Source: a virus. From it: 17,717 nucleotides of DNA. Made by a program: the position numbers and the translations under genes. Position 1 is the first letter of the stretch; each line of letters starts with the position of its first letter. Shown here one piece after another: positions 1 through 17,717 of the stretch. Under the pieces are notes generated by a model. The model did not search any database. It was not told the DNA's origin and worked only from the letters and a program-made list of their open reading frames with translations. The stretch lies in UHGV virus genome UHGV-0179344; one strand, given 5' to 3'.

Positions 1-1727
1 TCGGTGTAACGCACCAGGCCGCTCTGGAAGTTGATATTCACCTCGAAGGCGTCCAGTGTTTCGCCATCCGGGCAGGCGAGGAAAGGTCCTACCCACTCGT
101 AGTCGTCGCTGACACCCGTCACGGTGGCATCCAGCAGCGTGCGCTCGGTGAAGCCAGGCCATGACGGGTCAGGCGTCGTGATAGTCTCACCTGCCGGGCC
201 TGTGGTGACCGTTATCCGCTCAACCGTGACCGTCTGGCTGTCGATAGCCGTTATGCGGAACTGATTTCCGGCCAGCCCCAGAGAGAAACGCTGAATGCCC
301 TCCGGCAGTCCGGTGAACGGCGTGCCAGCGGCGCTATTGTAGGCCAGCGTGATGTGCGCCCTGACTTCCGCCGTGCCGCCCGCTGACTTCACGCCTGTTG
401 TATTAACCGGGGCATCCCCAAACGCAGACGCGGGTAACGGGCTGTTCGTGATGGACCCGCCAGCAAAGGGGCTGCTGGCCTCACCGATTTCGAGACGCCC
501 ACTGTTATCGCGGGCAACCAGGCCGGAACCGGAGAGCTGCGATGTGATCGACGAAGTAAGGCCCGACATGGTGACGTAGTTGGTAACCAGAGATACCGGA
601 TAGGTCGTTCCCTGCCAGCTGATGCTGAACGTCACCGGCGCGGTGCTGAAATCGTAGGTGGTCGGCGCGGCACTGGCAGTTAAGGTCGCGGCACTTCCCC
701 CTACTCCCGGCACCGCCGGAACGCCCGGGGCATAGCTGGCGATCACCAGGTCATAGTCGTTGCCGTTATAGTTCAGCGTCACCGGCATGCCGACGGACGG
801 GGCCAGTTCTTCTATTCCGCCATAAATGACGCTGTAACCGCCGGACGACACGACAGTATAGGAGTTGGGGGCCAGCACGGTGATCACCGTCCCGACTGTC
901 CAGGACGGCGGAATTTCCTCATCCCCGCCGGATGCCGATACGTCAACCAGGGTGATGGTGTTGCCGGACACGACCAGCGCATCAGCGATGATACTGACTG
1001 TTTCCGGGCCGCTTGAACCCAGATCCAGCCCGGCGGTACCGGAACCTGTATTCCCCACCTCAGGTGAGTTGAACCAGTTTTCGGTGCGCGCGTCGCCGGA
1101 TACCGTAGCGCCAGGCGGATAGATGGTGTAACGCACGTCGGTACCAAACGCGGAGATCGGCGTATTGCCTATCTTAATGTCGGACTGATTAATCACCATG
1201 TCGCCGACGCCCACGCACAGGAACATGCTGGTTTCCATACTGGTCTCGTTGACGAACCGGCTTACCGGTTGCATCACGTAATCAGGCCAGACACGATATT
1301 TCCCGAAGATTTCCCGGATGGGGTCACCCAGTTTCGCCGCGTTTGCTTTGGCAGGGTTCAGGTCAATCTGATCGCCGCTCGCCGCCTGTGCACCACTGCC
1401 GCCGGGCTGAGACATCGTACTCATCATGTAGATGCTGTAAGCCGCAGAGGCGACGGCTACGCTGACTGCAACCCAAATCGCGATTTCTGCGCCGGTACCG
1501 TATGGCACCGGGTACATTCTGACGTCAGTTTCACGTTTGATGACGCACAGTGGCCACTCTGCTGGCGGAACGGGTAGGCCGTCGATTTCAACCGCGACCG
1601 GGTGCTGCTGATCCGGCGTCCAGTCCTGCACATTCTGCGCAAACCAGGCGCTGAGGTTCATGGTTTCGTGTTGGTGCGTTTCCAGCGGCTCTCCCTGCAG
1701 TCGGGAGGGGTAGATTCGTATCGTCAC
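1..1727 (-). CDS. Large tail-tip / host-specificity protein (J-like central fibre), 5' portion only; C-terminus lies beyond the window start
   Basis: Hand translation of the minus strand from ATG 1661 to the window start gave no stop in my reading (about 553 codons); the ORF track omits it because it has no stop in the window. Predicted N-terminus MNLSAWFAQNVQDW, one hydrophobic helix (AEIAIWVAVSVAVASAAYSIY), then Gly/Thr/Ser-rich fibre-like sequence. Alternative start GTG at 1727 overlaps the upstream TGA (GTGA) with GGAG 8 nt upstream; ATG 1661 is the other candidate. Position directly after the K-like gene matches lambda-like tail-tip order. Confidence 0.55.
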   Translation of the reverse strand, partial: MTIRIYPSRLQGEPLETHQHETMNLSAWFAQNVQDWTPDQQHPVAVEIDGLPVPPAEWPLCVIKRETDVRMYPVPYGTGAEIAIWVAVSVAVASAAYSIYMMSTMSQPGGSGAQAASGDQIDLNPAKANAAKLGDPIREIFGKYRVWPDYVMQPVSRFVNETSMETSMFLCVGVGDMVINQSDIKIGNTPISAFGTDVRYTIYPPGATVSGDARTENWFNSPEVGNTGSGTAGLDLGSSGPETVSIIADALVVSGNTITLVDVSASGGDEEIPPSWTVGTVITVLAPNSYTVVSSGGYSVIYGGIEELAPSVGMPVTLNYNGNDYDLVIASYAPGVPAVPGVGGSAATLTASAAPTTYDFSTAPVTFSISWQGTTYPVSLVTNYVTMSGLTSSITSQLSGSGLVARDNSGRLEIGEASSPFAGGSITNSPLPASAFGDAPVNTTGVKSAGGTAEVRAHITLAYNSAAGTPFTGLPEGIQRFSLGLAGNQFRITAIDSQTVTVERITVTTGPAGETITTPDPSWPGFTERTLLDATVTGVSDDYEWVGPFLACPDGETLDAFEVNINFQSGLVRYT

Positions 1728-2155
1728 TGATAATACTCCACGCGGACAAAGCGGCGCGCAAATCGCGCCAGCGGCAGGAAGGTCACGTTAGTGCGGGGGT
1801 TGCATTCAGCGGCGCACATCTGGCCGTCAATCTCGACCACGATGGCAACGTGCGTCACCACTGAACCGGAATAACAGGCAATGCCCGCGCCCGGTTCAGG
1901 TTCACAACGCCGCAGATCAGCCATCAACCCGCGCGCCTCCCGATCAAGGCCGTTATCATCCTTCGTGACCCCGGCAAAATCAGGCCATGGCACCAGACCA
2001 AGGTCGCGCCTGATTTCATTAACGATGCCAAAGCAGTCGAGCGCAGGGTAAATACGCCCGCCCTTCTGCCACTCGACAGAACGGTATTTATCAGGGTTAA
2101 ACCGACCGTCTTTGCAGGATGAATTCATTATTGAGGCGCTTGATAAGCTCATCAT
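1724..2155 (-). CDS. Tail-tip NlpC/P60-family cysteine peptidase (lambda K-like, without an MPN domain)
   Basis: 143 aa with Cys in YPALDCFGIV and His in VVTHVAIVVE, the spacing expected for an NlpC/P60 catalytic pair. AAGGAG sits 5 nt upstream of ATG 2155. Position between L-like and J-like genes. Confidence 0.6.
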   Translation of the reverse strand: MMSLSSASIMNSSCKDGRFNPDKYRSVEWQKGGRIYPALDCFGIVNEIRRDLGLVPWPDFAGVTKDDNGLDREARGLMADLRRCEPEPGAGIACYSGSVVTHVAIVVEIDGQMCAAECNPRTNVTFLPLARFARRFVRVEYYQ

Positions 2156-2279
2156 TTGACTCCTTAATCATCTTCTCTGCCTCTGCTCGGGTGATGAGAT
2201 CGGGCTGGTTGTGACATTCATGGTGGATATCGCGAGGATGCGCTGACGCCAGCGGGTTGCCGGTGTTGTATTTGTTCAT
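2097..2279 (-). CDS. Hypothetical small protein (60 aa) overlapping the 5' end of the peptidase gene
   Basis: ATG at 2279 with AGGAAA 5 nt upstream, starting 10 nt after the stop of the upstream gene; His/Cys cluster HHECH. The last 59 nt overlap the RBS and start of 1724..2155, so it may be spurious. Confidence 0.25.
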   Translation of the reverse strand: MNKYNTGNPLASAHPRDIHHECHNQPDLITRAEAEKMIKESNDELIKRLNNEFILQRRSV

Positions 2280-2288
2280 AATGATTTC

Positions 2289-2771
2289 CTACTGGAGGTA
2301 ACGGAGGCCCGGGAAGTTCGGCAGCGTGTAGCGGTAGCGTGGCCATGCGGTATCGAGAATATTCATGTAGCCGGCGGTGATAAGCACCTGAGTTGCCGTC
2401 CAGTACCCTTCTTTAACTGCCATGGTAAATGGCGGAGACGCAGGACCGGAGAGGTCAGTCGAGATATACCGGCGGAATGTCAGGGATGCATCACTGAGGT
2501 TATCCAGCGCGTTGCGGATTGCGGTTGATACCACGCCATCAACATTGCTGATTGCTAATTTCAGATCCTGAGTACCGTCTGCATTACGCGCCGGTAACGC
2601 CACATCTATGGCTGAAGCAAGGAACGTTGCCTGAGCGCCATTATCCAGCGTCACGGTAATGTCATCCCAGCCGCGGGTCAGCCAGTAATTCTGTCCGCCA
2701 ACAGTGATCTGTAGCGTGTCGATGATAACTTCCCCACCGCCGCTGGTATAAAGCCTGTCCAATATTGTCAT
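2289..2771 (-). CDS. Minor tail / tail-tip assembly protein (L-like by position)
   Basis: 160-aa ORF whose ATG overlaps the upstream stop (ATGA); call is by gene order after the tape measure gene, no motif recognised. Confidence 0.5.
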   Translation of the reverse strand: MTILDRLYTSGGGEVIIDTLQITVGGQNYWLTRGWDDITVTLDNGAQATFLASAIDVALPARNADGTQDLKLAISNVDGVVSTAIRNALDNLSDASLTFRRYISTDLSGPASPPFTMAVKEGYWTATQVLITAGYMNILDTAWPRYRYTLPNFPGLRYLQ

Positions 2772-3232
2772 GCCTCAGGCCACTCCCTGTTCAATGCCAG
2801 GTCAATAATGTCCTGGTTAACCACGAAATAAGGGAATTCTGCCCAGCCAGGAGGAAGAAGCGGTCTTTCCCACAATTCCAGGGTCGCTGAGAATCGCCAG
2901 TAAATTGGCGCCACGAGAACAGGCCCATCGTAAATATCGGTGAACCGGCACTTGTAGCTCTCAACCCCGCGCGGCGTCTGAAGACGCATAAGAAACCATG
3001 CTGCACCATCAGAAATTGTTTCCCGATACCATGCTTCAAAAAGCTGAGCCTGCCCATCTGTCGTGAACATCCAGGTCACAGTGGCTTGGGTTGGTGTCGA
3101 GGTGTACTGCCTGCGCTGCCTGGCTCGCCCCGAAGTCAGTTGAGTGCGAAGTAATGGACTTACTGGTTTAAAACCATATCCGTCCTGCAATGGCAGCGGC
3201 AGATATTCATGGGGGTAACTCGCCATTGCCAT
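2768..3232 (-). CDS. Minor tail / distal tail protein (M-like by position)
   Basis: 154-aa ORF starting 2 nt after the tape measure stop; call is positional only. Confidence 0.5.
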   Translation of the reverse strand: MAMASYPHEYLPLPLQDGYGFKPVSPLLRTQLTSGRARQRRQYTSTPTQATVTWMFTTDGQAQLFEAWYRETISDGAAWFLMRLQTPRGVESYKCRFTDIYDGPVLVAPIYWRFSATLELWERPLLPPGWAEFPYFVVNQDIIDLALNREWPEA

Positions 3233-3233
3233 A

Positions 3234-6200
3234 TTAGGTCATCCTGTTTCCGCGACCCTGAGCCGCCCTGAGTGATTTACCGAACTGGCCTTTGCCTTCC
3301 AGAGTCTGATTACTAAGCTCGTTCACGAGTTGTTTGTTATTCAGCTTCAGCACTGCATCCATCTCCTGCTGAGTCATACCAGGGCTTTGCGGCATGTTGA
3401 TAATCTGGCTGATGTGGTTTGTTTGTGAACTGCCACCTGAAGAGGACTCATTCTTGCTACCCGTCCCGAAACCTGGCTTTGACAATGTGGCATCCAGCCC
3501 ACCATTGCGAATAGCCTCAAGGTTAGAGACTCCAATGCGCTTGGTTGCCGCAGCGTCAAAGACGTATTCCTGCCCATGCACAACGCCAGAGATAGACCGC
3601 GTCGCCCCATTCCCGGTGTAGCCGCCGGACTGAAACCCAACAGCCGCAGCGCTGGTAATGCTCGAGGTTATAGTGGACATAAGCCCCACAACCTGAGCAA
3701 TGGCAGCAAGGTTTGCCGGAAACGGAAGCCCGGCCAGCGCCTGCCCCATCGCCATCGGCAACTGCAGGGCTGCCTGCGCCAGCGCGAACGCTTTCTGAGT
3801 GATGAACGCCGCTTTGTACATCGCTGACTGTTCGCCAAACATCGTCCCCATAGAATCAGTGATGCTGGAGAACGAGTTTTGCGCGGACTGAGCCTGAGCA
3901 GCGTAAACAGCCATACTCATAGCCTCCTGATTCTGGTTGCCCTGCTGGCGAAGCGCGTCCAGTTGTTGCTGCTTCTTCTGCTCATTCAGGACGCTATTCA
4001 TCGTTATCGCTTTTTCCTGATCACTCAGCCATTTGGCATAATCGCCCTGAGCAGTTTTCAGCTTTTCAATAATCTCCAGTTGCGGGTCAATTTGCAGGCC
4101 GATCATGTTCATGCCCTGACCTGACAAATCATTGTTTGTTGCGCCAGATTTCAACGTCCCACCAGCGGCATTAACACCGGATATTACAGAATCAGGCAGC
4201 ACCGATTTGCTAATCAGGTCGCTCGCTTGTTGCCCTGCGGCTTCCGGCGAAAGCTGTTTAAGCGTCACCATTTTTTGTAGAATCTCCAGGCGTTTCTGGA
4301 GTGTCTCGTTTTGCCTGATCTCTTTCGGTGCGATGTCCTCCTGCATTTTCCGGTAGTCGTCGAGCGTCTTCACCTGCCCCTGCAACGCCTCCTGATTTTT
4401 ATATGCCTGCAGAATTTCTTCAGAACGGGAGAGAATAGACTTCTGGTCGGCGGTTAGTTGCGCCTTAGACTTGAGGTCTGCAATCTGCTGCTCGAACTTA
4501 ACTCTCGCCTGTGTTGCGCTGTTAAGCTTGTCACTGGCATCCAGTTGGGACTGCATGGCTGCAGTCTGCTGATTTATCTGATCAAGTAACCGGGTTGCAG
4601 CATCCTCTGTATAGGCTTTCCCCTTGGGCGCCTTGGGTGTTTTCGGGTCTTTGTAGCGGTCATTTATTTCAGAATATATTCTGTCATATTCTTCTTGAGT
4701 ATATTTCCCGCGATACTTGGATAGCTCAGCCAACTCTTTAGCACGTTGCTGCTGCCGTGTCTGATATTTCTGAGAAAAGGCATCAGCCTTCTGCTGTAGT
4801 TTTATCCCTTCCTGCTGTTTTTTAAGGTATGGGTCATAGGATTCATTAATGGCGTCCTGAGCCATTTTCTCGGACTGCAATGAAGCTAGTCGCGCTTTAG
4901 CAGCATCGACCGCCTTTTGAAGCATGGAAAGGTCGCTAGACTTCCATGCGCCATATGGCCCAGCATATTTTGATTGTCCGGCACTTAAATCAGAGAGTGA
5001 CTTTTGCGCCCTACCCAGTTCGTCCTGAGCTTCTGCTATTTTTTGATCTATAGATTTTTCACGACCTATATCTAGCATGGCATCCCAGGCACCTTTCGCG
5101 GCATCACCCAACCATTTCCATGCCTGCTCCAGTGAGCCTAGGTTACCCTGAATCTGGTCAGCACGCTGCTTCATAGTCGCAGCATACGTATCTGTCGCCA
5201 GTCTCGCAGCCTCTTGCTGATTACCCTCGTCCTGCAACGCCTTAATCTGGTTGTAGGTTGCTAGAGTCAGGAAGTGATATTTGTCGTTCAGTTCTCCGAT
5301 AGCCGCTACCGGGTTTTGTGCGATTTTCTCGAAGTCTGCCACCATGCTATCGACAGATTTATCGGTCGCATCGTTCATTGCGACAACGGCCTCCGTGACA
5401 GTCTGCATTGAACCTGTAGCGATTTTACCACCAGAAACAACACGGTTTAGTGCCTGAGCGGCGGCGGCTGTGGTATTCCCTGTGTTATCTGCGACAGATT
5501 TCGCCATGTCTGCCAATTGCCCGGTGGTTACCCCGGCAATATTCCCGGTCAGAACAAGGGACTTATTGAACTCCTGTTGCTCCTGGCTGCCTTTGTACCA
5601 GGCATATGTGAGAGTACCCACAACTGCGACAAGAGCGCCGATCCCGATAGTCATGGGATTGAGAAAGCCAGTGAGTTTTTTGGCATTCTCAGCATTTTCA
5701 GACAATGAGTTAGCGTTATCTGACAGAGAATCACTGGATTCATCGGCGGCATCTCCGGCTCCCAGTATCTGCTGTTTTATGATTTCGAAAAGATTACCCC
5801 AACCGCCAAAAGAATCGGCGATCTGCGAACCCTGCTGCATGAAGATAGTGAACAAAGGCATACCGCCAGCCAGGCCAACAGCAATATCATTCAGTTGCGC
5901 GGGGAGTAACCGCATGGCATTTTTATACTGACCTGCCGAGATAGCACCATACCGCATTTCATTGCTGACCTGATTGAGACCTTTCTCCGTCAAATCCAGC
6001 TTATTTGAAAGCTCTGCGTGGTATTCAGGAGACAGGAGTCCAGCATCCCTAGCAGCCGATAATGTCGCGCGCTGGCTTTTCAGCCTTTCCAGGGCTGCGC
6101 CAAGAGGGTCTAATTGCGAGCGTATTTGAGAGAAACTAGCCTGGAGTTTTTCATTCTCTCCAGTGAGACCACTAACCCTGTTTCTGGCATCATCAATTTT

Positions 6201-6503
6201 GGCTGCGTAATCTTCAAAACTATCAGCATCTAAGAGGCCTTTAGATTTTGCCCGAGAAAGCTCCTGCTGTTGTTTGTCTAATTTGTTGAGGGCTGCGTTG
6301 ACTGGGTCTATGCTGTCAAGCAAATCCTGAAGCGCTGACTTTTCCTCCTGAGTAGCTTTTGTCACCCTCCCTGCGCTTGCGGCTGCCTTTTGCCCCCACT
6401 CTGTTAAGCCATGAAGAGCACTGGACAAACTGCTGGCATTTTTTTCCGCGCCTGTACTGTCAATGATTATCGCAAGGCGTGATGTTTGTTCAGGCATTAC
6501 CAT
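3234..6503 (-). CDS. Tail tape measure protein
   Basis: 1089 aa, Ala/Gln/Leu/Lys-rich helical sequence with hydrophobic segments (MTIGIGALVAVVGTLTYAWY, FALAQAALQLPMAMGQALAGLPFPANLAAIAQVVGL) and a Gly-rich C-terminus; lies between the chaperone genes and the tail-tip genes. GGAGA precedes the second ATG (6497), which may be the true start. Confidence 0.85.
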   Translation of the reverse strand: MVMPEQTSRLAIIIDSTGAEKNASSLSSALHGLTEWGQKAAASAGRVTKATQEEKSALQDLLDSIDPVNAALNKLDKQQQELSRAKSKGLLDADSFEDYAAKIDDARNRVSGLTGENEKLQASFSQIRSQLDPLGAALERLKSQRATLSAARDAGLLSPEYHAELSNKLDLTEKGLNQVSNEMRYGAISAGQYKNAMRLLPAQLNDIAVGLAGGMPLFTIFMQQGSQIADSFGGWGNLFEIIKQQILGAGDAADESSDSLSDNANSLSENAENAKKLTGFLNPMTIGIGALVAVVGTLTYAWYKGSQEQQEFNKSLVLTGNIAGVTTGQLADMAKSVADNTGNTTAAAAQALNRVVSGGKIATGSMQTVTEAVVAMNDATDKSVDSMVADFEKIAQNPVAAIGELNDKYHFLTLATYNQIKALQDEGNQQEAARLATDTYAATMKQRADQIQGNLGSLEQAWKWLGDAAKGAWDAMLDIGREKSIDQKIAEAQDELGRAQKSLSDLSAGQSKYAGPYGAWKSSDLSMLQKAVDAAKARLASLQSEKMAQDAINESYDPYLKKQQEGIKLQQKADAFSQKYQTRQQQRAKELAELSKYRGKYTQEEYDRIYSEINDRYKDPKTPKAPKGKAYTEDAATRLLDQINQQTAAMQSQLDASDKLNSATQARVKFEQQIADLKSKAQLTADQKSILSRSEEILQAYKNQEALQGQVKTLDDYRKMQEDIAPKEIRQNETLQKRLEILQKMVTLKQLSPEAAGQQASDLISKSVLPDSVISGVNAAGGTLKSGATNNDLSGQGMNMIGLQIDPQLEIIEKLKTAQGDYAKWLSDQEKAITMNSVLNEQKKQQQLDALRQQGNQNQEAMSMAVYAAQAQSAQNSFSSITDSMGTMFGEQSAMYKAAFITQKAFALAQAALQLPMAMGQALAGLPFPANLAAIAQVVGLMSTITSSITSAAAVGFQSGGYTGNGATRSISGVVHGQEYVFDAAATKRIGVSNLEAIRNGGLDATLSKPGFGTGSKNESSSGGSSQTNHISQIINMPQSPGMTQQEMDAVLKLNNKQLVNELSNQTLEGKGQFGKSLRAAQGRGNRMT

Positions 6504-6514
6504 TCTCCGGACAT

Positions 6515-6543
6515 GAAAAAACCCGCCGTAGCGGGTTTTGTTT
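6515..6543 (-). terminator. Intrinsic terminator after the small secreted-protein gene (symmetric, potentially bidirectional)
   Basis: Plus strand aaaaaa-CCCGC-cgta-GCGGG-ttttgttt: a 5-bp GC stem with tetraloop flanked by A-run and T-run; on the minus strand it directly follows the TAA of 6542..6826 and precedes the tape measure RBS. Confidence 0.5.
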
Positions 6544-6826
6544 ATTGGCGAGACTTTTTATCTCTCTCGTGCTCTGAGGCTATGTAATCATAGGTGATTT
6601 TAGCATTGCGGCATTGCTTAGATGTATCCCCGTCAATAAGGCACTCTCCGTGATATCTGGAGATATTTGATGACATGCTAATAGCAGATATGAAAATAGA
6701 CTCGCACCTTTTGTCGCCATTGCACGCCTGGACCCTCATGCTATCCAGAAGTTGAACTTCCTCAATTTGTGCAAAAGAATAACCACATGAAAAAGATAGG
6801 ACCAAACCCAAAATTATTTTTTTCAC
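6542..6826 (-). CDS. Small secreted (periplasmic) cysteine-rich protein, moron gene; function unknown
   Basis: From GTG 6826: MKKIILGLVLSFSCGYSFA followed by QIEE, a classical Sec signal peptide with an AXA-like cleavage site and no lipobox; mature part about 75 aa with 4 Cys. ATG 6847 is an alternative start (gives 101 aa). Local GC is about 40% against about 55% for flanking phage genes. Confidence 0.5.
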   Translation of the reverse strand: MKKIILGLVLSFSCGYSFAQIEEVQLLDSMRVQACNGDKRCESIFISAISMSSNISRYHGECLIDGDTSKQCRNAKITYDYIASEHERDKKSRQ

Positions 6827-6856
6827 TCCACACCCCATCAGTAACATTTACCAACA

Positions 6857-6883
6857 TCGTATCAGGTGCTGATCCCGAATCAA
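6857..6883 (-). promoter_or_regulatory. Candidate sigma70 promoter for the secreted-protein gene
   Basis: On the minus strand TTGATT, 16 nt, TACGAT, ending a few nt upstream of the candidate starts. Weak match, by eye only. Confidence 0.2.
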
Positions 6884-6943
6884 CCTAACGGGGGTGAAAA
6901 TTGCGCTTAGTTGCGGGTAGACCGCCGAAGCGGGCCACGCTTG

Positions 6944-7498
6944 TTATTCAGGTAGAGCTTTGCCAAACCCGGGAAGCCTTATCTGCCCTTGCTGTTCAAT
7001 GCGCTCGATGCGAGCAAGCAGCTCGGGCTTTTTAACTCTGCCCCAGCGATTAAGCAGGCGACCTGACATGCTGGCCACGTCTTTCTCTTTCATGAACTCC
7101 AGCATGACGGCGTTTCGCTCCTCCTCAAACTGGCGCTGACCAATCTGAAGCATTGCGTACATCCAGTTGAAAGCGTTGATGTAAGCAATCTTGATCCGCA
7201 TGGCTTCTTTCTTGGTATAAGACATCACAAGAAGCATTAATCCATCCTTGCGGAGACGGTAGAACTTCTGCGGCTTACCATTCTGTAACTCATTGTTTTT
7301 ATAGCAAAGCTCAAAATTGAGCTTTGTATCAAACTCTGGAGGGCAAGCATCAATAGTCCTTTCAATATCGCGGACTACGTTTTTCGATAACTTGCCAAAT
7401 GCTTTTGCCACCATAAAAGAATCGGTAACCGGATCGTTGTTTGCTACAAAAATCAGATCGCGGAAATCGATGCCGTTAACGACTGTTGGGTAGTTCAT
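6944..7498 (-). CDS. Rha-family phage regulatory protein (N-terminal Rha domain, uncharacterised C-terminal region)
   Basis: The 287-aa track ORF has a junk Arg/Ser/Pro-rich N-terminal 103 aa that overlaps the upstream gene and terminator. From Met104 (ATG 7498, AAGG 8 nt upstream) the sequence VANNDPVTDSFMVAKAFGKLSKNVVRDIERTI ... RKDGLMLLVMSYTKKEAMRIKIAYINAFN matches my memory of the Rha-family N-terminal domain. Low GC (about 35-45%). Confidence 0.65.
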   Translation of the reverse strand: MNYPTVVNGIDFRDLIFVANNDPVTDSFMVAKAFGKLSKNVVRDIERTIDACPPEFDTKLNFELCYKNNELQNGKPQKFYRLRKDGLMLLVMSYTKKEAMRIKIAYINAFNWMYAMLQIGQRQFEEERNAVMLEFMKEKDVASMSGRLLNRWGRVKKPELLARIERIEQQGQIRLPGFGKALPE

Positions 7499-7650
7499 AG
7501 CGTGTACCTTACTTTGAGATGAACCTTTGCCGCATAGGAGATCAGCCCGTCGAGGCTCGCCAGCACTAACTGACATCCTCAAAGGCTCATTCCAAAGGGT
7601 TGGGTTCGACGTGGTTGGATGCGCTGCGGTGCGCGGTGAAATTCGGATAC

Positions 7651-7676
7651 AAAAAAGCCCCGGCGATTGCCGAGGC
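7651..7676 (-). terminator. Intrinsic terminator immediately after the GT chaperone stop
   Basis: Minus-strand RNA GCCUCGGC-AAUC-GCCGGGGC followed by UUUUUU, an 8-bp stem with one G-U pair. The pairing works only for the minus-strand transcript, matching the gene orientation. Confidence 0.5.
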
Positions 7677-8443
7677 TTATTTCTTCTTGCGGTCCTGCTC
7701 CTGCTTTTTGGCCCACTCATCGCGCCATGCGTCATCAAGTGCGAATATCGCAGCTTCAAACTCATCGCGATCGAGCTGTATGGGCCGAACAGACAGGTAT
7801 TGCTCAATGTCTCTTATGCCAAGGGGAAGCGGCGATCCCGTCATGCCTGCGTATGCCCTGGATCGGGAAATGATGGCGTATGCGCTTAGTATCTCGCCCG
7901 TTACGCCGTCTATCTCAGGCTCAGGAACGGGAGGCAACTTTAAACGCTCTCTCTTCCAGCGCTCCTTCTCTCCCTGCTCGCCGCCGTACTGGTTCAGCCA
8001 GGCTTGTGCTTCTGTGACTTTTTTACGGTTTCTTTCTTCTGCTCCGCCTTCCCTTCGGCAATCTCTGCTGCCGCTCCGAGGATTTGCCAGTAAAGCTCCG
8101 GGCGCTGCTTAAGAAGGGCCGCCCCTTTCTCTGGCGTATAGTCGATGGCTAATTCTTTACCATCTACCAGCTCGCCTACACCTTCCCAGCCTTTCAGCAG
8201 GTAATGAGCGCAGTTTTCGATAAGCAGGTCGTCAACTGAGTCGATATCGCCTACAGCAGACAGGTTGAAATCTTTCGTGCCGACCTTGTAGGTGGCATCG
8301 AGCTTTTCAATATGGCGACGTACGAGAGCGTTACGGGAGCGGTAGTGATGATTGTCCACACTGCCTACCTTCAGGCGCAGGCCTTCAATAGGCTCAATCC
8401 AGCGCTCACTGTTCAGGTCGATACGGGGTGCGATAATAATCAT
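7677..8443 (-). CDS. Tail assembly chaperone GT-like fusion made by programmed -1 frameshift (about 256 aa)
   Basis: ORF 7677..7937 is in the -1 frame relative to 7994..8443 and stays open upstream across the slippery site; the track start at 7937 is a TTG, so it has no convincing initiation codon of its own. Confidence 0.45.
7994..8443 (-). CDS. Tail assembly chaperone (lambda G-like)
   Basis: 149-aa acidic protein between the major tail and tape measure genes; the slippery heptamer lies 7 codons before its stop and a -1 frame ORF continues downstream. Confidence 0.6.
   Translation of the reverse strand: MIIIAPRIDLNSERWIEPIEGLRLKVGSVDNHHYRSRNALVRRHIEKLDATYKVGTKDFNLSAVGDIDSVDDLLIENCAHYLLKGWEGVGELVDGKELAIDYTPEKGAALLKQRPELYWQILGAAAEIAEGKAEQKKETVKKSQKHKPG
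8019..8025 (-). other. Programmed -1 ribosomal frameshift slippery heptamer A-AAA-AAG
   Basis: Minus-strand GTA AAA AAG in the G frame (plus-strand cttttttac); A AAA AAG is a well-known efficient -1 slip site in enterobacteria. Confidence 0.45.
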
Positions 8444-16016: not shown

Positions 16017-17113
16017 TTATCTTCTGAATGTAACAGGTGCCGACTTCAGCACGTCCCGTTTTTTCTGCGTTACTGCAAAGTATCTGAATCCGTCAGATCC
16101 GTGCGATGTCCAGTCGTGAAGTGGCTTGTCTTTCCAGCACCCTCGCTTGTCATCCCACTCCTTGCGATAGCTCTCCAGGGCGTTAAGTCCTTCTTCGCAT
16201 TTCACGTCATCAAAGGCGCATCGCGGGAGGATTTCACGCACCTGCTCGATACCGTCGTCAACGCCAAGCTTTGGCACCACCTGGAAGGTGATCCCATATC
16301 TGGTGCCGTCAATTTCGTAGCCTTCACGCGCCAGCTCTCGCCGGGTCTTGGCATCAGAACCGAACTCGCGGTTGTCAATATCGTGCGGCCCCCAGTGAGC
16401 GGCATAGGTATAGCCTTTATCCTTCAGCACCTTCATGTAATGGCGCAGGCCCTCACCGCTGTTCTCGTAGTAGTCGATGACGTGATACTCCTCGCCAACG
16501 ATGCGAACGAACCAGATAGCGGTGGAGTCGCTGACCCCGATATCCCAGAAGGTGTGGACAGGGAGGTGAGAGTTATCAGGAAGAGCACCAATGCGCTTCT
16601 GCTCGTAGAGCTTGCGGAACTGCTTAGCGTAGTAGGCACCTTCAACCGACTGCTGGAATGCTTCCGCTGGGATTGACGGATACTCCCGCTTCATGTCATC
16701 GCCGAGCGTTTTCTCTTTGGCGTAATACCAGGCCCGCTGACGCTCGTTAAGCACAATGCCGTACTTCGCCTCAAGCTCAGCGAAATAATCGCTCAGCCGC
16801 TGCGGTAGAGCCTCTACGGGGTCAATTGCATACAGGGCATTCTTCCACCAACTGAAAAAGAAGAATTTCCAGTCTAGAGATGAGAGCAACTTGCCCTGAA
16901 GTTGTGCTTTCTCAGCCGACTGACAGTAATCGAAGAAGTAACCAGCCCGGCCTTCCGCAGTGCTTTCAATCGTCGTGAAACAGTCGCTTGATACTGCCTC
17001 AAAAGCACCAGTGACAATCTCTCGGGCCTTGTCGGGAAACTTGGCGCAGATCTTCCCGAACTCGGAAACGTGCAGGTAGCGCAGCGTACCGCCACGGAAA
17101 GATGTGCTGATAT
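16017..17113 (-). pseudogene. Terminase large subunit, 5'-truncated by IS insertion (ATPase N-terminus missing, nuclease domain present)
   Basis: Track ORF 16017..17195 contains FWDIGVSDSTAIWF and WGPHDID, terminase nuclease-type acidic motifs, but its first ~27 codons lie inside the IS terminal repeat region. There is no Walker A and no plausible start downstream of the junction. Confidence 0.6.

Positions 17114-17717
<604 letters not shown>

What the first reader, a model, noticed from the sequence alone, without database searches (positions are those of the whole stretch)
1..1727. J-like tail-tip protein begins with a membrane-type helix
The large distal tail protein has a ~21-residue strongly hydrophobic helix about 60 residues from its N-terminus before fibre-like Gly/Thr/Ser-rich sequence. 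In lambda the hydrophobic segment is in the separate I protein, so this may be a fused I-J architecture or a membrane-active tip. The start is ambiguous between GTG 1727 (GTGA overlap) and ATG 1661.
Basis: inference. Interest (0 to 1): 0.4.

Follow-up and report, generated by a model that had tools for sequence, protein, structure and literature searches.

The report
Lambda I-J fused tail-tip protein
The large tail-tip protein of this prophage carries, at its start, a built-in copy of the small lambda "I" protein (a ubiquitin-like domain plus a greasy helix). This fused arrangement was already described in 2006, so the finding is real but ordinary.

Summary
Window 3-1727 (minus strand) is an uninterrupted ORF. 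It encodes the first 575 residues of a TipJ-family tail hub/tip protein; an E. coli prophage relative that is 92% identical has 1027 residues.

A 24-residue Ala/Val/Ser-rich hydrophobic helix lies at residues 79-102. In one sequence it is not statistically unusual. Its position is conserved, though: in 72 of 80 diverse relatives it is the most hydrophobic stretch of the whole protein.

The start is GTG 1727, not ATG 1661.

Residues 1-155 are a remote homologue of the whole lambda gpI protein:
- a ThiS/MoaD-like beta-grasp domain;
- a conserved glycine;
- the hydrophobic helix;
- a Gly/Ser linker;
- a gpI-C-like strand motif.

Profile-profile comparison gives P about 1e-6, and the controls were clean. 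J-like hub domains follow from about residue 160. There is no separate I gene, and the K-like neighbour lacks a JAB domain.

Iyer et al. (2006) described exactly this arrangement: TAPI fused to TAPJ, with a JAB-less NlpC peptidase. A relative, Sf11 gp14, was solved in 2025.

By analogy with lambda gpI, the helix probably plugs the tip lumen. It may enter the outer membrane after triggering; that step is inferred, not shown.

Verdict: a new member of a known kind, of low interest.

The parts
3..1727 (-). N-terminal 575 codons of a TipJ-family tail hub/tip protein, built as a gpI-like module fused to gpJ-like hub domains. The gene continues left of the window; a 92%-identical E. coli prophage homologue has 1027 aa.
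   Evidence: Open frame. phrog_469 tail protein, E = 5e-103. Homologues are named 'host specificity factor TipJ family'. NF040662 matches the C-terminal half of full-length relatives. E. coli homologue.
1725..1727 (-). GTG start codon, in a GTGA overlap with the stop codon of the upstream hydrolase gene. A GGAG lies 8 nt upstream, at about 1736-1739.
   Evidence: Sequence. Conserved N-terminus MTIRIYPSRL. PHROG profile position 2 aligns with residue 1. PGAP start in the E. coli homologue.
1500..1727 (-). Residues 1-76: ThiS/MoaD-like ubiquitin-fold (beta-grasp) domain, the counterpart of the gpI/TAPI N-terminal domain.
1491..1499 (-). Residues 77-79 (G-T-G): conserved glycines at the end of the beta-grasp domain, as in TAPI.
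   Evidence: Position 77 is 97% and position 79 is 87% small residue (Gly/Ala/Ser) in 32 relatives. The conserved C-terminal glycine of the TAPI Ubl domain is described in PMC1779556.
1422..1493 (-). Residues 79-102: the hydrophobic Ala/Val/Ser-rich helix, which is the feature reported. It has a face of small residues at 87/91/94/98. It is the counterpart of the gpI hydrophobic helices H1/H2.
   Evidence: KD19 = 1.85 and Wimley-White sum = -5.05 kcal/mol. Helix in both AF2 models. Positional conservation in 72 of 80 relatives and the small-residue pattern. gpI H1/H2 (PMC11101478).
1368..1421 (-). Residues 103-120: Gly/Ser-rich flexible linker. It aligns with the gpI 'plug' region (about 159-175).
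   Evidence: 61% G/S/T/A/P. pLDDT below 50. HHalign alignment.
1263..1367 (-). Residues 121-155: motif NPAKAN..LGDPIRE.FG..RV.PDY, the counterpart of the gpI C-terminal strand motif (gpI 170-205).
   Evidence: A126, N129, R138, G142, P148, D149 and Y150 are invariant in 32 relatives. HHalign of this part alone: P = 0.0036. Predicted as beta-strands at pLDDT about 80 in the full-length model of the relative.
1083..1250 (-). Residues about 160-215: start of the gpJ-like hub, aligned with the gpJ N-terminus (residues about 20-80).
   Evidence: HHalign against a profile of J N-termini: window 142-245 against J 9-103, P = 5e-4. The whole model of the relative matches lambda gpJ 8k35_A at E = 3.7e-24.
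3..1082 (-). Residues 216-575: a Gly/Ser/Thr-rich, beta-rich stretch about 180 residues longer than in Sf11 gp14. From about residue 556 it is followed by the start of the gpJ FNIII-A domain.
   Evidence: Composition. AF2 of the relative. Gap in the HMM alignment to Sf11 gp14. PF24801 at 555-652 of the E. coli homologue.
1724..2155 (-). Upstream 143-aa CHAP/NlpC-like peptidase. It occupies the position of lambda K but has no JAB domain.
   Evidence: Weak Pfam CHAP hit, E = 0.001, below the gathering score. Lambda K carries NLPC_P60 plus Prok-JAB. Relatives are annotated as hydrolase or CHAP.
2289..2771 (-). DUF1833 protein of 160 aa, a minor tail protein. By gene position it is probably the 'baseplate hub 1' / gpL-HDI counterpart.
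   Evidence: PF08875, E = 2e-39; phrog_396. Same gene order and size as Sf11 gp16 (156 aa) (PMC12724387). The role is inferred; no direct PDB sequence hit.
2768..3232 (-). 154-aa tail protein in the distal-tail-protein position.
   Evidence: phrog_384, E = 5e-58. Annotated 'putative tail tip protein' in Erwinia phage Gungnir39.
3234..6503 (-). Tape measure protein, 1089 aa.
   Evidence: PF06791 E = 1e-59; PF24622; phrog_24 E = 4e-214.

Best explanation
The ORF encodes the N-terminal part of the trimeric central hub/tip protein of a lambda-like siphophage tail, of the TipJ family (its solved relative Sf11 gp14 is called 'baseplate hub 2'). In this protein the product of lambda gene I (TAPI) has become the N-terminal module of the gene J product.

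The module (residues 1-155) has five parts:
- a ThiS/MoaD-like ubiquitin-fold domain;
- a conserved Gly;
- one hydrophobic helix with a face of small residues (residues 79-102);
- a flexible Gly/Ser linker;
- a strand motif that packs onto the hub domains.

Shown here: the homology, the predicted fold, the family-wide conservation, and the gene order. That order is TMP, distal tail protein, DUF1833 protein, a JAB-less NlpC/CHAP peptidase, then the I::J fusion, with no separate I gene.

Inferred by analogy with cryo-EM of lambda gpI: three copies of the helix sit inside the tip lumen under the C-terminal coiled coil of the tape measure protein and help plug the channel. When receptor binding opens the hub, the helices drop out on their linkers. 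They may insert into the outer membrane, anchoring the open tip or lining the exit for the tape measure protein and the DNA. Because the module is covalently joined to J, it would stay tethered to the tip rather than being released.
For: - ORF and start codon.
- Family: phrog_469, TipJ names and NF040662.
- The N-terminal profile finds 539 cluster representatives. In almost all full-length ones (870-1370 aa) the module sits at residues 1 to about 165.
- The hydrophobic maximum is conserved in position in 72 of 80 relatives.
- Match to gpI: HHalign probability 89.6-92.3%, P = 1.9e-6 and 5.6e-7, collinear over window 2-153 against gpI 16-205.
- Controls: reversed score 15, best of 40 column shuffles 17.8, against 46 observed. 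The Ubl domain alone gives P = 6e-6. The hydrophobic part alone is non-significant, so composition does not drive the score.
- In an unbiased search of all PDB sequences, the second-best hit of the shallow profile was the T1 gpI homologue 9l9p_A, at a weak E = 0.17.
- J part: Foldseek gives Sf11 gp14 E = 1e-39, lambda gpJ 4e-24 and T1 4e-20. Sequence comparison with Sf11 gp14 gives E = 1e-31 and includes the N-terminal module.
- Literature: TAPI fused to TAPJ, with a JAB-less NlpC peptidase and a beta-rich 'Z' protein (PMC1779556). gpI is part of the mature tip, has hydrophobic helices H1/H2, and forms the plug (PMC11101478, PMC10721106, PMC12617516).
- Sf11 gp14 is modelled from residue 81. 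By the alignment this puts its counterpart of the helix inside the modelled range, so it appears to be ordered in the virion.
Against: - Profile-to-sequence searches are only borderline: the best gpI sequence scores E = 0.05 at PDB-size Z. Pfam PF06805 does not hit the N-terminus even at E <= 10.
- The C-terminal motif match alone is weak (P = 0.0036), and the J N-terminus match is modest (P = 5e-4).
- A Foldseek search of predicted viral structures found no stand-alone gpI, only other long J-like proteins and weak ubiquitin-like hits.
- There is one helix here against two in gpI.
- In some relatives, including Sf11 gp14, the segment is amphipathic rather than hydrophobic (minimum KD 0.77). 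This argues against an obligatory membrane-spanning role.
- Membrane insertion has not been demonstrated even for lambda gpI.
- No transmembrane predictor or multimer model could be run, and I could not inspect the 9OCC coordinates.
Confidence: 0.72

Rival explanations
1. The module is gpI-like, but the helix never enters a membrane. [quoted passage not shown] On opening it is simply displaced.
For: The small-residue face at 87/91/94/98 fits tight helix-helix packing. Many relatives, Sf11 gp14 among them, have an amphipathic rather than hydrophobic segment. By the alignment the corresponding Sf11 segment falls within the modelled range 81-827, so it appears ordered in the virion. Membrane insertion of gpI is only a hypothesis in PMC11101478.
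Against: In 56 of 80 relatives the segment reaches KD >= 1.6. In the window protein a 37-residue stretch free of charged residues begins within it (residues 82-118). Such hydrophobicity is not needed for a soluble coiled coil. The T5 plug and lambda gpI are both proposed to contact the outer membrane.
Confidence: 0.2
2. The helix is a true transmembrane anchor used in the producing cell. It would hold the nascent tip protein, or its ubiquitin-like domain, at the inner membrane during tail-tip assembly, and would be buried or removed later.
For: Lambda gpI was long regarded as an assembly factor absent from mature tails (statement in PMC1779556). The Wimley-White sum of -5 kcal/mol is compatible with membrane partitioning.
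Against: Recent cryo-EM and mass spectrometry place gpI in mature lambda tips. There is no signal-peptide-like position: the helix starts about 78 residues in. No flanking Lys/Arg cluster lies next to the helix in the window protein. Tail assembly is cytoplasmic in known siphophages (general knowledge).
Confidence: 0.05
3. The feature is an artefact: a chance hydrophobic stretch, a wrong reading frame or start, or two adjacent genes (a small I-like gene plus J) read as one.
For: 29% of composition-preserving shuffles reach the same hydrophobicity. Some public records start the tail gene downstream of the helix (Klebsiella phage 5 LV-2017).
Against: There is no stop codon in 575 codons. The helix position is conserved across hundreds of representatives. 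The N-terminus is conserved from the GTG start and has an SD sequence. PGAP and the Gungnir39 annotation call one long gene. The solved Sf11 gp14 is a single 828-residue chain that includes the module.
Confidence: 0.02

Closest known systems
TAPI-TAPJ fusion proteins of prophages (Iyer, Burroughs and Aravind 2006, Genome Biol 7:R60; PMC1779556)
   Same: The architecture and gene context are the same as described there: a ubiquitin-like TAPI module fused to TAPJ, an adjacent NlpC-type peptidase without a JAB domain, and a further small beta-rich protein in the operon (here probably the DUF1833 protein).
   Different: Nothing essential differs. [quoted passage not shown] I did not check whether its example proteins belong to this exact subfamily.
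Bacteriophage lambda gpI (tail tip assembly protein I; PF06805; PDB 8IYK, 8K35, 8XCG)
   Same: The order of parts is the same: a ThiS/MoaD-like beta-grasp, a conserved Gly, a hydrophobic helical region, a polar linker or plug, then a strand motif that packs on the J hub. The profile-profile match has P about 1e-6. Hydrophobicity is similar (KD 1.85 against 1.78).
   Different: gpI is a separate 223-aa protein with two hydrophobic helices, and it is paired with a K protein that carries a JAB peptidase. Here the module is shorter (about 155 aa), has one helix, is fused to J, and has a JAB-less neighbour. The Pfam model does not detect it.
Shigella phage Sf11 gp14, 'baseplate hub 2 protein' (PDB 9OCC chain E; PMC12724387)
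   Same: It is the closest solved relative: hmmsearch E = 1e-31, including the N-terminal module, and Foldseek E = 1e-39. The gene order is the same (TMP, DTP, 156-aa hub 1, then gp14).
   Different: It has 828 aa and lacks about 180 residues of the Gly/Ser/Thr-rich middle part. Its equivalent segment is amphipathic rather than hydrophobic. Residues 1-80 are not modelled. The paper does not mention any relation to gpI.
Lambda gpJ and T1 central fibre/hub proteins (PDB 8K35_A, 9L9P_S)
   Same: The hub-domain fold matches (Foldseek E = 4e-24 and 4e-20). FNIII-A_GpJ and Phage-tail_3 domains are present in full-length relatives. The N-terminal J motif aligns from about window residue 160.
   Different: gpJ starts directly with a short Gly/Lys-rich N-terminus and needs separate gpI chains to complete its sheets. 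Here those strands are supplied in cis.
Phage T5 pb3 baseplate hub protein (PDB 7ZHJ, 7ZQP)
   Same: It works in a similar way: one polypeptide carries both the hub domains and a plug that closes the tube and is proposed to contact the outer membrane on opening (PMC10721106).
   Different: The structural similarity is only distant (Foldseek E = 1e-8). The T5 plug is an insertion within hub domain II rather than an N-terminal gpI-like module, and pb3 also contains the gpL-equivalent domain.

Membership tests
Lambda gpI / TAPI (Pfam PF06805 Lambda_tail_I) | N-terminal ThiS/MoaD-like ubiquitin-fold (beta-grasp) domain | tested here: met
Lambda gpI / TAPI (Pfam PF06805 Lambda_tail_I) | Conserved glycine at the C-terminal end of the beta-grasp domain | tested here: met
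   G77 and G79 of the window protein; these columns are 97% and 87% small residue (Gly/Ala/Ser) in 32 relatives. The feature is defined in PMC1779556.
Lambda gpI / TAPI (Pfam PF06805 Lambda_tail_I) | Gly/Ala-rich hydrophobic region after the Ubl domain (helices H1/H2, predicted transmembrane) | tested here: met
   There is one helix, residues 79-102, with KD19 = 1.85 against 1.78 for gpI. It is a single helix rather than two, so the feature is met in kind but not in number.
Lambda gpI / TAPI (Pfam PF06805 Lambda_tail_I) | C-terminal TAPI-C strand motif (N..F....N..AQGN.vP..YGe..vG) | tested here: inconclusive
   It aligns with NPAKAN..LGDPIRE.FG..RV, but only at P = 0.0036 on its own.
Lambda gpI / TAPI (Pfam PF06805 Lambda_tail_I) | Match to the family's curated sequence model | tested here: not met
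Lambda gpI / TAPI (Pfam PF06805 Lambda_tail_I) | Stand-alone protein of about 200 aa encoded between K and J | tested here: not met
   The module is part of one ORF with the J-like protein. It is therefore a gpI-like domain, not a gpI-type protein.
Lambda gpI / TAPI (Pfam PF06805 Lambda_tail_I) | [quoted passage not shown] | not testable with these tools
   This needs the coordinates of 9OCC, or a multimer prediction or a structure.
TipJ / gpJ host-specificity hub proteins (NCBIfam NF040662; Pfam PF24801, PF13550) | Match to the TipJ-related model and gpJ domains | tested here: met
   This was tested in full-length relatives: NF040662 E = 1e-120 to 1e-131, and PF24801 plus PF13550. Most of that region lies left of the window. 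The window fragment itself gives no NCBIfam or Pfam hit, but it is 92% identical to the first 574 aa of the E. coli protein.
TipJ / gpJ host-specificity hub proteins (NCBIfam NF040662; Pfam PF24801, PF13550) | Hub-domain fold of solved gpJ-type proteins | tested here: met
   Foldseek with the AF2 model of relative P0061: Sf11 gp14 1e-39, lambda gpJ 4e-24, T1 4e-20.
TipJ / gpJ host-specificity hub proteins (NCBIfam NF040662; Pfam PF24801, PF13550) | [quoted passage not shown] | tested here: met
   Gene order in the window and in Gungnir39, Klebsiella phage 5 and E. coli PCP06021.
Integral membrane protein with a transmembrane anchor | Hydrophobic stretch of at least about 19 residues with a favourable partitioning energy | tested here: met
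   Wimley-White octanol sum of -5.05 kcal/mol, and an uncharged stretch of 37 residues.
Integral membrane protein with a transmembrane anchor | Topology signals: flanking positive charges, or a signal-anchor position near the N-terminus | tested here: not met
   The helix starts at residue 79, after a folded domain. No Lys/Arg cluster flanks it in the window protein. Dedicated predictors such as TMHMM or DeepTMHMM were not available.

The most novel reading that the evidence does not exclude
In this JAB-less fused lineage the gpI-like module may be a permanently tethered membrane-insertion device. After the hub opens, three covalently attached helices would insert into the outer membrane on their roughly 20-residue linkers. 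They would staple the open tip to the membrane and line the exit pore, whereas in lambda the gpI chains are separate polypeptides. A second open point is the N-terminal ubiquitin-like domain. It is invisible in both the lambda and Sf11 maps. It may be removed by the neighbouring papain-like (NlpC/CHAP) peptidase at the conserved Gly, which would be a ubiquitin-style maturation step without a JAB enzyme.
Probability: 0.25. Interest if true: 0.45.

Novelty: new member of a known kind. Interest (0 to 1): 0.2.

Why it matters
The practical value is for annotation. The N-terminal 155 residues of this large TipJ-family group get no Pfam or NCBIfam hit (539 cluster representatives found here). Public records call the protein 'kinase' and its neighbour 'nitrite transporter'.

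Recognising the N-terminus as a built-in gpI module links three things:
- the 2006 domain analysis;
- the 2023-2025 lambda tip structures;
- the 2025 Sf11 structure, whose authors did not comment on this region.

It also provides a natural single-chain system for testing whether the gpI hydrophobic helix enters the outer membrane, because here the helix cannot dissociate from the tip. Beyond that, the finding is expected phage biology.

Tried and rejected
- Pfam and NCBIfam scans of the N-terminus found nothing, even at E <= 10.
- BLASTP of the window protein against lambda gpI, and of relative P0061 against lambda gpJ, found nothing.
- The first HHalign runs used shallow profiles and were not significant (E = 0.025-0.11). 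Widening only the family side reached P = 0.002. The gpI side then had to be diversified by hand, using 11 phage records.
- The search for related loci with a gpI alignment returned only near-identical lambda copies, so it added no diversity.
- HMM-to-sequence searches in both directions were borderline or non-significant.
- The afdb50 fold library was not available. The BFVD search returned other long J-like proteins and weak ubiquitin-like hits, but no stand-alone gpI.
- P0380 (256 aa) looked like a possible stand-alone form. It is a chimera of a tape-measure N-terminus with the helix and motif, probably an assembly or frameshift artefact.
- PDB sequence searches with the three upstream small tail proteins gave no useful hit, so their equivalence to Sf11 gp16/gp17 and to lambda L/M/K rests on gene order and domain hits only.
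- The 'fibre-like' reading of residues 216-520 was rejected in favour of beta-rich globular domains.
- ATG 1661 as the start was rejected.
Full report
**What is there.** The minus-strand frame from nt 1727 down to nt 3 is open for 575 codons and runs off the left edge of the window. It is the last gene of a complete siphophage structural block, all on the minus strand. The block contains:
- portal, scaffold, major head protein, connector proteins, tail tube protein and tail assembly chaperone;
- a 1089-aa tape measure protein (3234-6503);
- a 154-aa tail protein (2768-3232);
- a 160-aa DUF1833 protein (2289-2771);
- a 143-aa CHAP/NlpC-like peptidase (1724-2155);
- then this gene.

The protein hits PHROG 469 'tail protein' at E = 5e-103. 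Its relatives are named 'host specificity factor TipJ family phage tail protein'. Full-length relatives of about 1000 aa match NCBIfam NF040662 and the gpJ domains PF24801 and PF13550 in their C-terminal half. A prophage gene in E. coli PCP06021 is 92% identical over all 575 residues and has 1027 aa. So the window holds a little more than half of the protein.

**Start codon.** The N-terminal sequence MTIRIYPSRLxGEPLETH is conserved in more than 100 relatives, and PHROG profile position 2 aligns with residue 1. GTG 1727 has a GGAG 8 nt upstream and overlaps the stop of the upstream gene as GTGA. PGAP and the Gungnir39 annotation use the equivalent overlapping start. ATG 1661 has no Shine-Dalgarno sequence. 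The start is GTG 1727.

**The hydrophobic segment.** Residues 79-102 (AEIAIWVAVSVAVASAAYSIYMM, nt 1422-1493) score a 19-residue Kyte-Doolittle mean of 1.85. Their Wimley-White octanol sum is -5.05 kcal/mol. Lambda gpI scores 1.78 and -3.45.

On its own this is not remarkable: 29% of shuffles of the protein's own composition reach the same value. What makes it real is conservation.
- A profile of the first 172 residues finds 539 cluster representatives in 1.84 billion proteins.
- Almost all full-length ones (870-1370 aa) carry the module at residues 1 to about 165.
- In 72 of 80 such proteins the most hydrophobic 19-mer of the entire protein lies at residues 60-105 (median KD 1.91, range 0.77-3.18).
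- In close relatives, positions 87, 91, 94 and 98 are small residues in at least 88% of sequences. That gives a helix-packing face.

Both AlphaFold2 models predict a helix here. Confidence is low in the full-length monomer model and 75-85 in the N-terminal model.

**Is it lambda I fused to J?** Pairwise BLAST and the Pfam model see nothing, and shallow profiles were not significant. I then widened both sides. The family profile used 96 diverse N-termini. The gpI profile used lambda plus 18 others, including HK022, phi80, a T1-like phage, SSU5, and Burkholderia, Ralstonia, Vibrio, Pseudomonas, Psychrobacter, Aeromonas and Edwardsiella phages.

HHalign then gave a single collinear alignment of window residues 2-153 with gpI 16-205. 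Probability was 89.6-92.3%, with P = 1.9e-6 and 5.6e-7.

Controls:
- the reversed gpI profile scored 15.1, and the best of 40 column shuffles 17.8, against 46.0 observed;
- the ubiquitin-like domain alone gave P = 6e-6;
- the post-helix motif alone gave P = 0.0036;
- the hydrophobic part alone, and the cross-pairings, were non-significant, so composition does not drive the match.

An unbiased search of all PDB sequences with the shallow profile returned Sf11 gp14 first. The T1 gpI homologue came second, at a weak E = 0.17.

From about residue 142 the sequence aligns with gpJ residues 9-103 (P = 5e-4; the well-aligned stretch starts near residue 165). The full-length model of a 51%-identical relative matches solved gpJ-type hubs: Sf11 gp14 at 1e-39, lambda gpJ at 4e-24 and T1 at 4e-20.

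No canonical gpI ORF exists anywhere in the window, and none lies between the peptidase gene and this gene in relatives. The protein is therefore an end-to-end I::J fusion. It has lost roughly the last 18 residues of I and the first 10-20 of J.

[quoted passage not shown] The window fits on all three points. Its K-like neighbour has only a weak, sub-threshold CHAP/NlpC hit, whereas lambda K has NLPC_P60 plus Prok-JAB. The DUF1833 protein is a plausible 'Z'.

A family member has also been solved. Sf11 gp14 ('baseplate hub 2', PDB 9OCC) is a sequence homologue, and the match includes the N-terminal module (E = 1e-31). Residues 81-827 of its 828 are modelled. That paper does not discuss the N-terminus, a plug, or any relation to gpI.

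**How it probably works.** In lambda, gpI is part of the mature tip.
- Its ubiquitin-like domain is not resolved.
- Two hydrophobic helices and a plug sit in the lumen under the C-terminal coiled coil of the tape measure protein.
- Its C-terminal strands extend sheets of gpJ.
- On LamB binding, the hub opens and the helices disappear from the density. They are proposed to insert into the outer membrane (PMC11101478, PMC10721106, PMC12617516).

I infer the same roles for the fused module here. One difference follows from the fusion: the helix stays tethered to the tip by its Gly/Ser linker of about 20 residues.

In the AF2 model, the strands after the linker are integrated into the hub at pLDDT about 80. 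That fits strand complementation in cis. Membrane insertion itself is not shown for any member. It is weakened by relatives in which the segment is amphipathic rather than hydrophobic.

The 'fibre-like' Gly/Thr/Ser-rich sequence is correct in composition only. G+S+T is 37% in residues 216-520. The model of the relative predicts beta-rich globular domains there. This part is about 180 residues longer than in Sf11 gp14, and the gpJ FNIII-A domain begins only at about residue 556.

**Verdict.** The membrane-active reading is plausible by analogy but untested. The architecture is a documented variant of the lambda tail tip, so this is a new member of a known kind, of low interest apart from its value for annotation.

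Noticed in passing
window 17122-17717 (-), with 16017-17195 (-): An IS3-type transposase (Pfam rve, rve_3, rve_2) runs off the right edge of the window. It abuts a 392-aa ORF (phrog_2472, no Pfam hit) just upstream of the portal gene. This may be an IS insertion at the packaging end of the prophage, which could make the prophage defective.
   Followed up: partly
window 6944-7807 (-): A Rha / ORF11CD3 anti-repressor-like gene (287 aa) sits inside the tail gene block, between the tail assembly chaperone (7994-8443) and the tape measure gene. It looks like a moron. The 101-aa ORF next to it (6542-6847) matches no family.
   Followed up: no
window 3-1727 and 1724-2155; public records: Many GenBank and RefSeq records name this tail protein 'kinase' and the neighbouring 143-aa CHAP-like protein 'nitrite transporter'. 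Neither name has any support in the domain searches here. They appear to be propagated misnomers.
   Followed up: partly
window 1-2000 versus 4000-7500: G+C is 0.59-0.62 over the tip gene but 0.46-0.50 over the tape measure / Rha region. This suggests mosaic origin of the tail module. Megablast also found only the tape measure part shared with Klebsiella phages.
   Followed up: no
window 2097-2279 (-): A 60-aa ORF spans the 133-nt gap between the DUF1833 gene and the peptidase gene and overlaps the latter's 5' end. The same small ORF is annotated as hypothetical in E. coli PCP06021. It matches no family.
   Followed up: no
window 3-1082 (-), residues 216-575: This Gly/Ser/Thr-rich middle stretch is predicted to be beta-rich, and it is about 180 residues longer than in the solved relative Sf11 gp14. 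Its fold and role were not examined; it may be extra receptor-binding or decoration domains.
   Followed up: partly
window 1434-1469 (-), residues 87-98: Positions 87, 91, 94 and 98 of the hydrophobic helix are Gly/Ala/Ser in 88-97% of 32 relatives. This i, i+4, i+7, i+11 pattern is typical of tightly packed helix bundles. Lambda gpI has a comparable G/S spacing in GILFSLGASMVLGG.
   Followed up: partly
protein P0380, not in the window: This 256-aa database protein joins a tape-measure-like N-terminus to the family's hydrophobic helix and post-helix motif. It is most likely a frameshift or assembly chimera rather than a natural stand-alone form.
   Followed up: partly
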